A DNA stretch of 64,000 bases from Zootoca vivipara. Its lineage: Eukaryota. Location of the stretch: assembly GCF_963506605.1 (NCBI RefSeq), contig NC_083291.1:36084001-36148000 (forward strand), in the 5' to 3' direction. Below, piece by piece: positions 27,001 through 49,500 of this stretch. A program made the position numbers. How positions within the stretch are numbered: the stretch's first letter is position 1; the number at the start of each line of letters is the position of its first letter.

Positions 27001-30000
27001 CGTGTTGCCTCCTTCTTCTTTTTTGTATTTTGGTGTTTTGACTCAGGTCTGCAACACAGGGGTTGTTTCATTAGCATTTAGGAAGGAGGTGCCAGGGAAA
27101 CATTTAGGGAACTAGCCTAGTCCCCCTATTCCAATGACTGCACACCACGGGGTAAGATGGAGGGTGATATATCTACCAGTCTTTTCTGCTCATTTTCTCA
27201 CTCCCCCTTCCTTTATGCAAGTCATGGCAGAGATCTCCATTGTATCCCTCAAAGCTCAATGTGCAGAAACTGAACCCCTGCTGACAATTTCTGCAGCTGC
27301 TTCAAACACAATTCTAGGATCCCAGCTGCTTCCTCTCTGGTACATGGAGAATCTCCTTTCTGGGGCCCAGTCCATCCCATCCCATCTCCTGTTCCAAATC
27401 AAAATCTTGCCAATGTAAAATGTTTAAAAAGAAGGCAGCCCTTAGACCATTGTGCTGTCATGCTCCTTTGGGTATCAATCTGTAGATCAGGCACCCCCAA
27501 ACTTTGGCCCTCCAGATGTTTTGGACTACAATTCCCATCATCCCTGACCACTGGTCCTGTTAGCTAGAGATCATGGGAGTTGTAGGCCAAAACATCTGGA
27601 GGGCCGAAGTTTGGGGATGCCTGCTGTAGATTATCCCTCACATCTTTTCTGATCTGTGCATAGACCGCCCCCAGCCCCCAGAGATTATGCTTCTCCCCAG
27701 TTGTGGAGCAAACCAGAATCCTCTTGACATCCATACTCAAAGGAAAAAAAACTTTTCTAAGACTTATTAATGAGGACAAGCTAATTTGTTAAGCTGAATG
27801 ATGGGTTGGGTCTCTGAATGATGATTCTCCAGAGTTTATGCTATTGCATTATATTATTTCTGGAGGGGGAACCTGTTTGAGACGTCCTTGGACCCTGGAG
27901 AGCACCACCCTTAAGCAGAGATGAACACTGCTTCCCTTGCATCAGAAAACACAGAGCTAATCTCCTCAGCAGATGAAGGAGGCCAGTTTCCTCCTATGCA
28001 GAACAAGTCCACTTCCTTTGTTCTTCACATTGACAGGAGCAAGTGAGCAAACAGGAAGTGCCTTTACTTAAGTAAGTGTGAATATAGTTATGTTTTTGGG
28101 GTGGGAGCAAGACTCCCCTAAAATATCTGGATTCAGTGAAGGGTTAGAATTTAAGGAAACCCCTAAATTACTGGGCCTAATGGGCCTTGAGTTTAAAGTG
28201 GGTTTTCCATGTCCAGGAAACCACTTGGCGGAAGAACCATCAAAAGGTAATCACTGGAATGGCCGAGACAAACCCATTAAGAAGGTCAGTTTCTGTCTGG
28301 GCTGGACAGAAAATGGGGAAAGCCCTCTCTGAGGTAAGAGATAATTAGCAGAGACAAAAGGACAGAGTTTCAGGAGGGTGGAGAACTGCAGTGGGCAATG
28401 AGGTAAGCAAACAGGAAAGAATTGTCATTTTTGAAGCTGGAGAGTGGGGGGGGGGCAAAGCATGAAGCTGCAGAAGAGGTGAGACATGATATTTGGAGTC
28501 TCTTGGAATCTGAGGCTGCAGCAATGGAAGAAACAGGACCCTCTTGGGATGTGAATGCTCTGATCTCTCTCAATCTAGACACAGATTGCATGCATATGTA
28601 AATAAACCATGTATCATAAAGAGATCACGGACTCCACTTGGCCTCATTGTTCCAAAAGTAAACACAGACCCTGGTAAGCATGCATGGCACCTCTAGAATC
28701 TCTCACTGCTCATAGATTGGTGAAACAATGTGTCACCCACTTAAAAGCTTCTAACATCCAAGAAACCTATTGAGGATTATTTAATGGTTACTAATCAGTA
28801 TCTGCTGAATTCACCCAGTACAATTAAAGCCCATGACCCCTCAATTTCTACATTCCAGTCATGAGTCTTATCCCACCAGGTTTCAATAATTTCTATTAGG
28901 TCATATCTGCCACCCTGCATTAAGAGTTCAAATTCGTCTTCATTGTTTCCTATACTCTGTGCATTTGTATAGAGACAACTGAAACCACAAGACGTTCCCT
29001 CCAGCTGCTTCCTTCTTGTAGTTTCCTGCCCTTTAGCAGGTTTCTGTAGCACCACCTCAGTTTCCTGTGCATCAACGTGTTTTCCTTTCATCTGTAATAT
29101 TGTCTCCCTCCTCCTCAGGATTTAGTTTAAAGCTCTCCTGATGGGGTTCATGAGACCCTTAGCAAACACATTCTTGCCAACCACTGTGAGGTATAACCAA
29201 TCTCTTGCCAGAAGTCCATCCTCAAGGAAGCAGGAACCATGGTCCAAGAAGCCAAACCATTCCTGACAACACCTGAGCAGCCACTGGTTTACCTCCAGTA
29301 TCTTCCCCTCTCTTCCTGGGCCACAACCTTCAACAACAAGCAGTGATGAAAAAACCCACCTGTACCCTAAGGCTCTTCAGCTTCTAATCCAGAGTCTTAA
29401 AGTCCCTTGCTATGTCTGTGTCTGTCAGTATCTCAAAACCAGAATACAATATGAGGGGAGGAAAGAGGGATTTCTGCATAGCTCAGTTTGGGCAGCTAGC
29501 AAGCAGAGGGTGGGGAATTTACTAGCCTAAACATTTCTTCTTCTTGCCCCTACAGCAGCTTTCGCCTAATGAGTCCTGGGAATGCAACAGACTTCTCTGA
29601 ATTATTCCTCCATGGCTTCCCAACCCAGCCAGAGTTTCAAGGGCTCCTCTTCCTGCTATTCCTCTCCATGTACCTGCTGGCCATTCTGGGGAACACAACA
29701 ATCATCTTCTTGATCCGTTCTGATTTACAGCTCCTCCACGCTCCTATGTATTTCTTCCTCAGCAACCTTGCCTTAGCTGACTTGGGCTTCATCTCCACCA
29801 CAGTCCCCAAAGTGCTAGAAAACTTGTTGTCTCAAAAAAAGACCATCTCCTATCGTGCCTGCCTGGTGCAGATGTACTTTTATATGTCTTTTGGCAACTC
29901 AGACAGCTTCCTGTTGGCTTCCATGGCCTACGACCGTTTCGTGGCCATCTGCTTCCCCTTGCATTATTCTGCCCTGATGAGCCGTCAGCGTTGCCTCCTC

Positions 30001-46500: not shown

Positions 46501-49500
46501 AAAAGCACGATGAATAAAAACACAAATATACATCAGAAAAATACAAAAAGTTACAAATACAGGAAAAAAGAGGGGGGGGGAGAAAAAAGCTAGAAAGCCT
46601 AATCTTAAAAAAAAAAACATTCCTGTTCGTAGGAACCTGTGAAAGACAAGATAGATAAAAATGTATAACAAAAGGGATGGGAAGTATCTGTGTACAAAGG
46701 TAATGAGTGTATATATTCTGTATCTTTTCCTTTTTTCTAGAGGATAGATTTGGTTGGAATGTTTTCTTTGGAGGTTCTTAAGCAGAGGTTAGGGACCCAG
46801 GTGGCACTGTGGGTTAAACCACAGAGTCTAGGGCTTGCTGATCAGAAGGTTGGCGGTTTGAATCCCTGCAACGGGGTGAGCTCCCGTTGCTCGGTCCCAG
46901 CTCCTGCCAACCTAGCAGTTCGAAAGCACATCAAAGTGCAAGTAGATAAATAGGGACCGCTCCGGTGGGAAGGTAAACTGCGTTTCCGTGTGCTGCTCTG
47001 GTTCGCCAGAAGCAGCTTTGTCATGCCGGCTACATGACCCGGAAGCTGTCTGCAGACAAACGCCGGCTCCCTCGGCCTATAGAGCGAGATGAGTGCCGCA
47101 ACCCCAGAGTCGGACACGACTGGACCTGATGGTCAGGGGCCCCTTTACGTTTACCTTTAAGCAGAGGTTAGATAGCCATCTGCCATGAATGCTTTAGTTG
47201 AGATTCCTGCATTGCAAGGGGTTGAACTAGATGACCCTTAGGGTCCCTTCCAACTCTACATTTCAGCAATTCTATGATTCTAAATGGGTGCTGTCTTGGG
47301 CAGCAAGATTACACACATACAAAGCCGTCCTTCCTATTGGGCTTACTGGCGCATTGCGCCAGGGCACTGGCCTCTCAGGGGCGCTCCAGCGAGTGGGGGA
47401 GCCTGCTCGGCTCCCCTTTCCTTCCTGCATGCCCACCAGCTGTGCCCCATCAACCATATGGCTGGCGGGCATGCAGCTTGCCTCCCAAGCCTCTGCGGGA
47501 GGAGAGCTATCCCTGCAGAGGCTTAGGATGGAAGCTGCGCCCTGCCAACTATATGGCTGGCGGGTGTGCAGCTTCCTTCCCAAGCCTCCAAGGGAGGAGA
47601 ACAATCCCCGCAGAGGCTTGGGAAAAGGTCAACCACTGTGAGAAATGGGGGGAGGGCGCCGGAGGGATCTTTGCACCACGGCGCCGGATATGCTTAAGAC
47701 GGCCTTGCACATATATGGGCAGCAATGCAATCATTAAGTCGGTGTTTCTCAAACTTGGGTCTCCAGCTGTTGTTGAACTAGAATTCCCATCACCACTGAC
47801 CACTGGTCCTGCTAGCTAGGGGTGATGGGAGTTGTAGTTCAACAGTAGCTGAGAACCCAAGTTTGAGAAACACTGCATTAAGCACATATACAGTATACAA
47901 CTTATATCTAAAGAGTAACATAAGTCCCCAGTGAACCAAAAAAAGCCCTAAAGCGTGGGTGTAACAATATGCCACAGACACATGCTAAAAAAAGAGAGAA
48001 CAAGGGAGATGGTTAGTTTGAATGCAACTATACCCTATAGAGAGGGCGGAGGCTTCCTGTGTGAGTGAATAATGCAAAGACCATTTGGTTGCCTATACTA
48101 GTCCTAAATCATAAATCTACTCTTGGAAGATTTAATTATATTTGAAGTCTGGTTATTACTTACAGGGGAGTGATAGTTAATATAAGGGACATATATGATT
48201 ATGATGCTGATCTTTACTGTATGTATTAGGGTTAAGAAAATATTTGCTTATGGTAGTTATGCTCTGGTCCATGAAGAGTCGGACACAACTAAATGACTAA
48301 ACAACAACAACAAAAGCTCAGCTAATCCTAGCACATGCAGGCCCCAAATACCTGAAAGACAGATTGCAGTCCGTTTCCCCATTACAGATACCCATCATTT
48401 TGGCCAAAGTTTAAAACAGACCCGAAAGCGGACACACCATCTGTGTGCTCTAGTGTCCAAGTGATGTTGGCTCCCACTCCTGCTACTATAAGATGTGACA
48501 GCTAAAGACACTAATGAAAATGGTGCCTAATGACCCTCTTCATGGCCGCTTTCATTTCACTATTCCTGAGACTGTAGATGAAGGGATTCAGCATAGGGGT
48601 CACCATGGTATACATGACAGAGGCCACAGTGTCCTTGCGATCCGAGTTGTTGGAACGTGGCTTGAAATAAACCCAGCTCACAGTGCCATAGAACAAGACC
48701 ACCACAGCAATGTGGGACCCGCAGGTGGAGAAAGCCTTTTTCTTTCCAGAGCTGGATGGAATCTTCAGGATGGTGTAGAAAATGCGCACATAGGAGATGG
48801 CGATCAGCACAAATGGCCCCAGGACCTCCACCACCCCTTCAGTCAGAAGCAGCATTTCAATGACACTGCTGTCTGAGCAAGAGATCTCCAACAAAGGGTA
48901 AAGATCGCAGAAGAAATGTGGGATCTCCCTAGAGTCACAGAACGAAATGCGGGACATCAAAATGGTATAAAGCAGAGAGTGGACAATAGGGATAGCCCAG
49001 GACACTGATGCGAGGAGGAGGCAACGCTTACGGCTCATCAGGGCAGAATAACGCAGGGGGGAGCAGATGGCCACGTAACGGTCGTAGGCCATGGAAGCCA
49101 ACAGGAAGCTGTCTGAGTTGCCAAAAGACACATAAAAGTACATCTGCACCAGGCAGGCATGAAAGGAGATGGTCTTTTTATGAGACAACAAGTTTTCTAG
49201 CACTTTGGGGACTGTGGTGGAGATGAAGCCCAAGTCAGCTAAGGCAAGGTTGCTGAGGAAGAAATACATAGGAGCGTGGAGGAGCTGTAAATCAGAACGG
49301 ATCAAGAAGATGATTGTTGCGTTCCCCAGAATGGCCAGCAGGTACACGGAGAGGAATAGCAGGAAGAGGAGCCCTTGAAACTCTGGCTGGGTTGGGAAGC
49401 CATGGAGGAATAATTCAGAGAAGTCTGTTGCATTCCCAGGACTCATTAGGCTAAAGCTGCCGTAGGGGCAAGAAGAAGAAATGTTTAGGCTAGTAAATTC

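What the first reader, a model, noticed from the sequence alone, without database searches (positions are those of the whole stretch)
29569..49446. Receptor CDS is more divergent than the dead DNA around it
Seen: twins B1 and B2 differ at ~23 of 311 residues (e.g. DRF/DRY, VMEIL/VVEVL, LAAV/VASV), several in TM3-TM5. A non-coding block (28078-28332 vs 50686-50940) shows only ~4 differences in 255 nt, and a dead CR1 block (~32760-33105 vs ~45855-46200) looks identical by eye. Several B1 changes look like CpG decay (V>M, R>H, R>C). Inference: flanks are homogenised by gene conversion while the receptors are kept distinct by selection, or the CDS was converted by another paralogue.
[Added by the scan's program, not by the reader: the finding's places include an assembly gap (unread letters, written N; its length is only estimated) at 38330 to 38466. 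Whether the letters on both sides are continuous or in frame is not known: test that first.]
Basis: partly seen in the sequence, partly recalled or inferred. Interest (0 to 1): 0.75.

Follow-up and report, generated by a model that had tools for sequence, protein, structure and literature searches.

The report
Lizard odorant-receptor twins with patchwork divergence
Two near-identical odorant-receptor genes in a lizard genome sit in a duplicated block whose middle 3.4 kb is older than its ends, so the genes differ as much as the junk DNA right beside them, which is ordinary for this gene family.

Summary
B1 and B2 differ at 32 of 936 nt and 23 of 311 residues. The two quoted non-coding blocks differ at 4 of 255 and 0 of 346 nt. 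The headline holds only against those hand-picked blocks.

The duplicated arms (27077-33757 and 44625-51911) form a three-part patchwork. A core at 29312-32760 is 3.93% divergent, against 1.41% outside it; 0 of 300 shuffles reach this contrast. The CDS lies inside the core. Its divergence (3.42%) is not above the core's non-coding DNA (4.09%, p=0.44). dS is 0.0385 and dN/dS is 0.89.

Both genes look functional. There are no indels in the CDS where 8.5-10 are expected. Replacements are conservative, and both proteins fit the family profile equally.

Most likely the arms carry a gene-conversion mosaic that is not specific to the CDS, with moderately relaxed constraint on TM3-TM5. Conversion by a paralogue in the window is not supported.

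The N gap lies in the spacer, in no CDS, but the arms' relative orientation depends on that join. The window is a lacertid lizard, not human. This is ordinary and of low interest.

The parts
27077..33757 (+). Left arm of the duplicated block (carries B1)
   Evidence: Self-blastn and piecewise MAFFT alignment against 51911-44625: 5896 ungapped columns, 151 mismatches.
44625..51911 (-). Right arm of the duplicated block (carries B2), inverted as scaffolded
   Evidence: The orientation relative to the left arm depends on the join at the N gap.
29569..30504 (+). B1: intact single-exon olfactory receptor CDS, 311 codons, with DRF in place of DRY
   Evidence: ORF. Pfam 7tm_4 at 203 bits against a cut-off of 27.
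48511..49446 (-). B2: intact single-exon olfactory receptor CDS, 311 codons
   Evidence: ORF. Pfam 7tm_4 at 211 bits. 99% identical to a Zootoca vivipara record, P0001. Closest solved chain is consOR1, 8uxy, E=1e-115.
29312..32760 (.). High-divergence core of the arms in left-arm coordinates (the right-arm counterpart is about 46201-49704): 106/2700 = 3.93%
   Evidence: Best two-rate partition, reached by 0 of 300 shuffles. With non-CpG sites only, the left edge moves to 29812-29832.
27194..29311 (.). Outer low-divergence tract, about 1.2-1.4%
   Evidence: 25/2100; 28/2010 after trimming around indels.
32761..33757 (.). Inner low-divergence tract, about 1.1-1.25%; includes the dead CR1 fragment
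   Evidence: 11/996; 12/963 for 32734-33757 after trimming. CR1 reverse-transcriptase hit at 32743-33129.
30927..31227 (.). SINE-like insertion present only in the left arm, inside the core
   Evidence: The right arm shows the empty site, and the element is similar to several other copies in the window.
46476..47156 (.). 681-bp insertion present only in the right arm (contains a SINE-like copy), inside the core
   Evidence: The left arm shows the empty site at 32080/32081.
32321..32733 (.). 413-bp block present only in the left arm (the right arm has 10 bp there); abuts the right edge of the core
44918..45497 (.). 580-bp insertion present only in the right arm, inside the inner low-divergence tract, flanked by a repeated ATTG
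38330..38466 (.). Assembly gap (137 N) in the spacer between the arms
   Evidence: No coding sequence abuts it. It was left unfilled.
36043..37011 (-). Receptor C: a single-copy olfactory receptor in the spacer, 56% aa identity to B2
19270..21212 (-). A1 arm of the neighbouring inverted receptor pair, used as an in-window comparator (twin arm 24918-26947)
   Evidence: CDS 9/981 = 0.92%, dN/dS 0.38, flank 20472-21212 at 2.47%.

Best explanation
B1 and B2 are two intact, probably functional class II family-1 olfactory receptor genes of a lacertid lizard (Zootoca vivipara or a very close relative). They lie on duplicated arms of about 7 kb, inverted as scaffolded. The arms do not share a single age. 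A 3.4-kb core that holds the CDS plus about 2.5 kb of non-coding and transposon DNA is about 4% divergent. The outer 2.2 kb and the inner 1 kb are about 1.2-1.4% divergent.

The most likely history (inferred) is an older duplication followed by arm-to-arm non-allelic gene conversion. That conversion re-homogenised the outer and inner tracts and left the core untouched. Arm-specific insertions of 301, 681 and 413 bp in the core are heterologies that would hinder conversion there.

The CDS therefore carries the core's neutral divergence (shown: dS is about equal to the adjacent non-coding divergence). Within the CDS, frameshifts and radical replacements are removed by selection. Conservative replacements accumulate at close to the neutral rate in TM3-TM5, the part of the receptor that varies most, and the ends of the CDS are more constrained. 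Nothing specific to the CDS is needed to explain its divergence.
For: Mosaic. The core at 29312-32760 has 106/2700 differences against 45/3196 outside it, and 0 of 300 shuffles reach this contrast; the same holds for non-CpG sites. The result survives trimming 10 bp around indels: outer 1.39%, core non-coding 4.09%, inner 1.25%. Indel density follows the same pattern. GC content does not differ systematically between the tracts.

The CDS is not special within the core. It has 32/936 differences against 56/1369 in the core non-coding DNA, p=0.44. dS=0.0385, dN=0.0341, omega 0.89.

Constraint. The CDS has 0 indels in 936 nt where 8.5-10.1 are expected from the core's non-coding rate (P=2e-4 to 4e-5). 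The mean BLOSUM62 score of the 23 replacements is +0.74, against -0.44 for simulated non-synonymous changes (fraction of simulations reaching it 0.00055). Omega of 0.3 or less is rejected (p=0.004). Both proteins fit a profile built from 116 homologues equally well (526.6 and 524.2 bits). Derived residues are split about evenly between B1 and B2 against lacertid outgroups.

Heterologies. Three of the four large arm-specific blocks lie in the core or at its edge.

In-window comparator. The neighbouring A1/A2 pair shows the usual pattern: CDS 0.92%, flank 2.47%, omega 0.38, and one 400-nt run with no difference.

Not retained haplotypes. The sequences flanking the two arms are not homologous, and receptors A2 and C have no counterpart beside the right arm.
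Against: No lizard genomic DNA from another species was available, so conversion is inferred from the mosaic alone. No tract was shown to group by species rather than by arm.

With penalties of 1.5-2 x ln(n) per segment, the segmentation preferred a single rate. The left edge of the core is uncertain: 29312 with all sites, 29812-29832 with non-CpG sites.

The two low-divergence tracts have the same divergence (1.19% and 1.10%). That fits a young duplication with an imported core just as well.

The core shows an unexplained asymmetry. The left arm has A/T where the right arm has G/C at 60 sites, against 25 the other way (p=2e-4). Outside the core the counts are 17 and 22. Two copies that diverged in place under the same regime should not show this.

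The middle of the CDS (5.98%) is nominally above the core non-coding DNA (4.09%), p=0.11.
Confidence: 0.5

Rival explanations
1. The core was imported. The arms duplicated recently (about 1.2% ago). The 3.4-kb core of one arm was then overwritten by conversion from a third, more diverged copy of the whole segment elsewhere in the genome, or from a very divergent allele.
For: The outer and inner tracts have the same low divergence (25/2100 and 11/996), as a single young duplication predicts. The A/T versus G/C asymmetry is confined to the core (60:25 against 17:22; Fisher p=0.005), which suggests the two cores evolved in different settings. A Zootoca record (P0001) is like B2 but differs at L56R, A216V, V220M and R221C, so more variants of this gene exist. 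Podarcis muralis has at least three relatives (P0003, P0010, P0014).
Against: No third copy is in the window: tblastn finds six receptor loci in all. A 3.4-kb tract is long for non-allelic conversion (recalled, not tested here). It is unknown whether P0001 is an allele or a paralogue; the cluster members could not be listed.
Confidence: 0.22
2. Selection against homogenisation. Conversion acts along the whole arm, but converted receptors are removed by selection. This leaves a peak of divergence around the ligand-contact part of the CDS, with linked DNA carried along.
For: The middle of the CDS (nt 265-699, TM3-TM5) is 5.98%, against 0.76% and 1.69% at the two ends (p=8e-5). Omega there is 1.00. 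17 of the 23 replacements lie in residues 95-227. Both genes are kept intact. Passages of the review PMC3924837 describe such peaks.
Against: The divergent tract is not centred on the CDS. It runs about 2.2 kb beyond the stop codon and ends at an insertion. Its maximum is non-coding (31467-31696, 22/225). Synonymous changes cluster with the replacements, with dS 0.062 in codons 89-233. The middle of the CDS is not significantly above the core non-coding DNA (p=0.11). Omega is not above 1, and omega of 2 or more is disfavoured (p=0.046).
Confidence: 0.13
3. Assembly artefact. Near-identical arms were partly collapsed, cross-polished or joined from different haplotypes, so low- and high-divergence blocks appear that are not in the real genome. 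The inverted arrangement may also come from a wrong scaffold join.
For: The two arms lie on opposite sides of an N gap of estimated length. A database record from the same or a sister species differs from B2 at 4 residues, two of which are B1-like.
Against: Four large arm-specific insertions with clean empty sites in the other arm and 26 small indels show two distinct physical copies. The flanks of the arms are not homologous, so these are not retained haplotypes. Block edges coincide with real structural differences.
Confidence: 0.08
4. Conversion of the CDS by another olfactory receptor paralogue that shares only the coding sequence.
For: Differences are concentrated in the middle of the CDS. 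Three A/T-to-G/C differences sit within 16 nt at codons 216-221.
Against: The in-window paralogues are 56-67% identical in nt and equally close to B1 and B2. At the 32 differing sites they side with the B2 state 16 times and the B1 state 11 times, with 5 ties and no run. The divergent tract continues into non-coding DNA, where a receptor donor has no homology.
Confidence: 0.03
5. Local differences in mutation rate, with no difference in history.
For: None beyond the pattern itself.
Against: There is a threefold step at non-CpG sites over kilobase blocks with similar GC (0.45, 0.38-0.48 and 0.45). The right edge of the core is sharp and sits at an insertion.
Confidence: 0.03

Closest known systems
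Mosaic divergence of duplicated genes under non-allelic gene conversion, including the 'peak of divergence' model (Teshima and Innan 2008, as described in the review PMC3924837; human red/green opsin exon 5)
   Same: Linked duplicates a few tens of kb apart, low divergence in some tracts, and a block of higher divergence that contains functionally variable codons.
   Different: Here the block is a 3.4-kb plateau that is mostly non-coding and is not centred on the coding sites. There is no excess of replacement over synonymous or non-coding change. The original paper was not held; I saw only passages of the review.
Islands of divergence persisting under gene conversion in paralogues (GOT1 in Tigriopus, PMC3728101; medaka RH2 opsins, PMC7337190)
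   Same: The same general idea of paralogue regions that escape homogenisation.
   Different: For these two papers I saw only the search listing and the start of each abstract, so no detailed comparison was made.
Vertebrate class II olfactory receptors, family 1 (closest solved chain consOR1, PDB 8uxy)
   Same: 7tm_4 domain, seven predicted helices, single-exon ORF of 311 codons, E=1e-115 to consOR1. Homologues are named OR1-type receptors by their sources.
   Different: B1 carries DRF instead of DRY at the end of TM3. F occurs there in 4 of 37 squamate and 2 of 79 mammalian homologues.
Palindromes with arm-to-arm conversion, as on mammalian sex chromosomes (recalled; listings only)
   Same: Inverted arms around a unique spacer.
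   Different: The arms are short (about 7 kb) and only 97.4% identical at aligned sites, and 98.6% even in the low-divergence tracts. They are interrupted by arm-specific insertions, and their orientation depends on a scaffold join.

Membership tests
Olfactory receptor (rhodopsin-like GPCR, Pfam 7tm_4) | Match to 7tm_4 above the curated cut-off | tested here: met
   B1 scores 203.3 bits and B2 210.8 bits against a cut-off of 27.
Olfactory receptor (rhodopsin-like GPCR, Pfam 7tm_4) | Seven transmembrane helices plus helix 8 | tested here: met
   AlphaFold2 model of B2, mean pLDDT 84.7. Helices at 21-51, 59-88, 95-128, 139-164, 193-227, 232-260, 269-291 and 296-310.
Olfactory receptor (rhodopsin-like GPCR, Pfam 7tm_4) | Conserved motifs (MAYDRY, PMYFFL, KAFSTCGSH, PMLNPFIYSLRN; the motif list is recalled) | tested here: met
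   All four are present in B2. B1 has MAYDRF, and its other three motifs are intact.
Olfactory receptor (rhodopsin-like GPCR, Pfam 7tm_4) | Odorant binding and expression in olfactory neurons | not testable with these tools
   No expression or ligand data were available.
Peak of divergence kept by selection against gene conversion (Teshima-Innan type) | [quoted passage not shown] | not testable with these tools
   No lizard genomic DNA from other species could be reached. In the protein tree, B1, B2 and the Lacerta agilis sequence form an unresolved polytomy.
Peak of divergence kept by selection against gene conversion (Teshima-Innan type) | Divergence peak centred on, and confined around, the selected coding sites | tested here: not met
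   The plateau spans 29312-32760 and the CDS occupies only 29569-30504. The maximum lies at 31467-31696, which is non-coding.
Peak of divergence kept by selection against gene conversion (Teshima-Innan type) | Replacement changes in excess of the neutral expectation at the peak | tested here: inconclusive
   Omega is 1.00 in codons 89-233 and 0.89 overall, with a rough range of 0.4-2. The middle of the CDS against the core non-coding DNA gives p=0.11.
Palindrome homogenised by arm-to-arm conversion | Inverted arms on one molecule | tested here: inconclusive
   The arms are inverted in the window, but they lie on opposite sides of the N gap.
Palindrome homogenised by arm-to-arm conversion | Near-identity along the whole arm | tested here: not met
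   151/5896 mismatches overall, 3.93% in the core, and four large arm-specific insertions.

The most novel reading that the evidence does not exclude
The core is an island kept apart by selection on the ligand-contact part (TM3-TM5) of two diverging lizard odorant receptors, inside arms that are otherwise being homogenised. In addition, the two cores evolve under different substitution regimes: the right arm gains G/C while the left arm decays towards A/T (60:25, core only). That would imply GC-biased conversion or a methylation difference acting on only one member of a linked pair about 18 kb away from its twin.
Probability: 0.12. Interest if true: 0.45.

Novelty: new member of a known kind. 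Interest (0 to 1): 0.22.

Why it matters
It matters little beyond this locus. It is a clean small example of a trap: comparing a CDS with a few hand-picked flanking blocks can suggest selection, when the CDS simply sits in an older block of a conversion mosaic. The locus could serve as a case for studying how insertions limit conversion between duplicated receptor genes. The asymmetry in base composition between the two cores is the one feature that standard models do not predict.

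Tried and rejected
1. A single global MAFFT alignment of the arms misaligned 32.1-32.7 kb around the arm-specific insertions, giving spurious 26-60% bins. I replaced it with a piecewise alignment guided by the blastn segments.

2. Penalised segmentation. With a penalty of ln(n) per segment it gave four blocks. With 1.5-2 x ln(n) it gave one block. I therefore relied on a shuffle test of the best two-rate partition.

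3. In-window paralogues as conversion donors or nucleotide outgroups. They are too distant (56-67% nt identity) and show no preference for either copy.

4. Whether one copy is decaying. The profile scores of B1 and B2 are equal, and family-unusual residues occur in both: B1 has F124, Q140 and L274; B2 has F95, A216, V220 and S276.

5. Retained haplotypes as the source of the twins. Rejected, because the DNA flanking the arms is not homologous.

It is therefore unknown whether P0001 is an allele or a third copy, and what the 9 members of the Lacerta cluster are.

7. Teshima and Innan 2008 (PMC2278071) is not held.

8. A literature search for Zootoca vivipara, olfactory receptor and genome assembly returned 4 papers, none on this locus judging by title and abstract start. 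A search on olfactory receptor, gene conversion and inverted/palindrome listed 15 of 461 papers, none on lizards by title. No supplementary files were consulted.

Polarisation therefore rests on proteins only.

Full report
What the window is. The window has 44.8% GC, a CpG observed/expected ratio of 0.31, and one run of 137 N at 38330-38466. It carries six intact single-exon olfactory receptor ORFs, all matching Pfam 7tm_4 far above the cut-off. It also carries CR1 and BovB-like reverse-transcriptase remnants. The best protein match of B2 is a Zootoca vivipara record (P0001, 99%), followed by Lacerta agilis (P0002, 94%) and Podarcis muralis (P0003, 86%). The window is therefore lacertid lizard DNA and not human. 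The closest solved chain is consOR1 (8uxy, E=1e-115).

The gap. The N run lies in the 10.9-kb spacer between the arms. It is 1.3 kb from the nearest CDS (receptor C, 36043-37011) and 4.6 kb and 6.2 kb from the inner ends of the arms. Frames that read through it are open only because of the N. No comparison below uses a column near the gap, and I did not fill it. B1 and B2 do lie on opposite sides of it, so their inverted orientation and their distance depend on the scaffold join. I could not test that join.

Checking the observation. B1 (29569-30504 +) and B2 (48511-49446 -) differ at 32 of 936 nt and 23 of 311 residues. The quoted examples are all present. The quoted non-coding block differs at 4 of 255 nt and the CR1 block at 0 of 346 nt. 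That block really is a CR1 reverse-transcriptase fragment. On an AlphaFold2 model of B2 (mean pLDDT 84.7), 17 of the 23 replacements lie in residues 95-227, from TM3 through TM5.

The arms as a whole. Self-blastn and a piecewise alignment define arms at 27077-33757 and 51911-44625, with 5896 ungapped columns and 151 mismatches. Four large blocks are arm-specific:
- a 301-bp SINE-like insertion in the left arm (30927-31227);
- a 681-bp insertion in the right arm (46476-47156);
- a 413-bp block in the left arm (32321-32733);
- a 580-bp insertion in the right arm (44918-45497).
In each case the other arm shows a clean empty site.

Divergence is not uniform along the arms:
- outer 27077-29324: 1.54%
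- upstream 29325-29568: 5.13%
- CDS: 3.42%
- 30505-30926: 3.38%
- 31228-32320: 4.28%
- inner 32734-33757: 1.27%

The best two-rate partition puts a core at 29312-32760 with 106/2700 differences (3.93%), against 45/3196 (1.41%) outside it. None of 300 column shuffles reaches that contrast, and the same is true for non-CpG sites alone. In fairness, a heavily penalised segmentation preferred a single rate. With non-CpG sites the left edge moves to about 29812-29832, which is inside the CDS. After removing 10 columns around every indel the picture holds: outer 1.39%, core non-coding 4.09%, inner 1.25%. Small-indel density follows it too, at 4.1, 9.1 and 1.0 per kb.

Where the CDS stands. Against the outer and inner tracts the CDS is more divergent (p=1.2e-4; non-CpG p=0.0015). 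Against the non-coding DNA of its own core it is not (32/936 against 56/1369, p=0.44; non-CpG p=0.60). Against all non-CDS columns it gives p=0.07. The DNA immediately around the CDS is as divergent as the CDS.

Selection on the CDS. By the Nei-Gojobori method dN=0.0341, dS=0.0385 and omega=0.89. Omega of 0.3 or less is rejected (p=0.004), and omega of 2 or more is disfavoured (p=0.046). dS equals the divergence of the core's non-coding DNA, so the coding sequence has the same age as its surroundings. Differences cluster in codons 89-233 (26 of 32; 5.98% against 0.76% and 1.69% at the ends; p=8e-5). Synonymous changes cluster there as well (6 of 8; dS 0.062; omega 1.00). The middle of the CDS is not significantly above the core non-coding DNA (p=0.11).

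The genes are not decaying.
- There is no indel in 936 nt, where 8.5-10.1 are expected at the core's non-coding rate (P between 2e-4 and 4e-5).
- The 23 replacements are far more conservative than random non-synonymous changes (mean BLOSUM62 +0.74 against -0.44; fraction of simulations reaching it 0.00055).
- A profile built from 116 named homologues scores B1 and B2 alike (526.6 and 524.2 bits).
- Against lacertid outgroup proteins, derived residues are split roughly evenly, about 11 on each copy by my reading.
- In a protein tree, B1, B2 with P0001, and the Lacerta agilis sequence form an unresolved polytomy with similar branch lengths (0.038, 0.040, 0.028).

Together this points to moderately relaxed purifying selection on both copies, with most accepted changes in the part of the receptor that usually varies. 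That TM3-TM5 are the variable helices of these receptors is recalled knowledge, not something tested here.

Other donors. The four other receptors in the window are 56-67% identical in nt to B1 and to B2, with no preference. At the 32 differing sites they side with the B2 state 16 times and the B1 state 11 times, with 5 ties. They are unlikely conversion donors. A donor sharing only the CDS also could not explain a divergent tract that extends 2.2 kb into non-coding DNA.

Comparator. The neighbouring inverted pair A1/A2 shows the usual pattern. Its CDS differs at 9/981 (0.92%), omega is 0.38, there is one 400-nt run without any difference, and the flank is at 2.47%.

Explanation. The best reading is an older duplication whose outer and inner tracts were later re-homogenised by arm-to-arm conversion. 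The core escaped, perhaps because the three large heterologies in it block conversion. The right edge of the core lies within about 30 bp of the 413-bp left-arm block. The conversion step is inferred, not shown.

The main rival is a young duplication whose core was overwritten from a third copy or a divergent allele. It is favoured by the equal divergence of the two low tracts (1.19% and 1.10%). It is also favoured by an asymmetry I cannot otherwise explain. In the core, the left arm has A/T where the right arm has G/C at 60 sites, against 25 the other way (p=2e-4; non-CpG 40:21, p=0.02). In CpG context the counts are 20:4. Outside the core they are 17:22. The asymmetry also appears in the core's non-coding part (37:20), so it is not a property of the protein.

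Here, however, the block is a plateau that is mostly non-coding and off-centre, without an excess of replacements, so I rate that model low. An assembly artefact cannot be excluded without reads, but clean arm-specific insertions and non-homologous flanks argue for two real copies.

A further hint of exchange or polymorphism. The Zootoca record P0001 equals B2 at 20 of the 23 differing sites and equals B1 at two (M220, C221). At residue 216 it has V, the outgroup state, and it also carries a private L56R. Whether P0001 is an allele from another individual or another copy could not be checked.

Verdict. The counts are right and the mosaic is real. The claim that the receptor is more divergent than the dead DNA around it does not hold for the DNA actually adjacent to it. 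The pattern is an ordinary member of a known kind, a conversion mosaic in a young olfactory receptor duplicate. One loose end is the base-composition asymmetry between the two cores.

Noticed in passing
window 29312-32760 against 46201-49704: Base-composition asymmetry confined to the divergent core. The left arm has A/T where the right arm has G/C at 60 sites, against 25 the reverse (p=2e-4). In CpG context the counts are 20:4. Outside the core they are 17:22. The cause is unexplained; it could be GC-biased conversion, a methylation difference, or a foreign origin of one core.
   Followed up: partly
window 19270-21212 and 24918-26947: A second inverted receptor pair, A1/A2 (326 codons each), around a BovB-like element (22182-23863). 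The CDS differs at 9/981, including a 400-nt run with no difference. The flank is 2.47% divergent and dN/dS is 0.38. Its right arm ends only 130 bp before the left B arm begins.
   Followed up: partly
window 48786-48801 (B2 codons 216-221) and protein P0001: Three A/T-to-G/C differences lie within 16 nt of the CDS (nt 647, 658 and 661). At these codons the Zootoca record P0001 carries V216, M220 and C221, which is B1-like at 220 and 221. This indicates either a short exchange between the twins or within-species polymorphism.
   Followed up: partly
window 55813-57744 (-): A 643-codon open frame encoding a proline- and lysine-rich protein, with a weak match to DUF4629 (36.9 bits, cut-off 27). 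It is probably a large exon of a non-receptor gene at the edge of the receptor cluster.
   Followed up: no
window 41012-41952 and 42968-43936: A direct duplication of about 0.9 kb in two pieces, 96-97% identical, in the spacer to the right of the gap. It contains CR1-like fragments.
   Followed up: no
window 14030-15355 (+) and 22336-23852 (+): Long open reverse-transcriptase frames: a CR1-like element (441 codons, RVT_1 at 120 bits) and a BovB-like element (211 and 246 codons). Further BovB-like copies, about 93% identical, lie at 38933-39260 and 52449-53549, which suggests fairly recent activity.
   Followed up: no
window 31708 / 47525-47619: A 95-bp segment present only in the right arm looks like a tandem duplication of the adjacent sequence. 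The most divergent patch of the arms (31467-31696, 22/225) lies just beside it.
   Followed up: no
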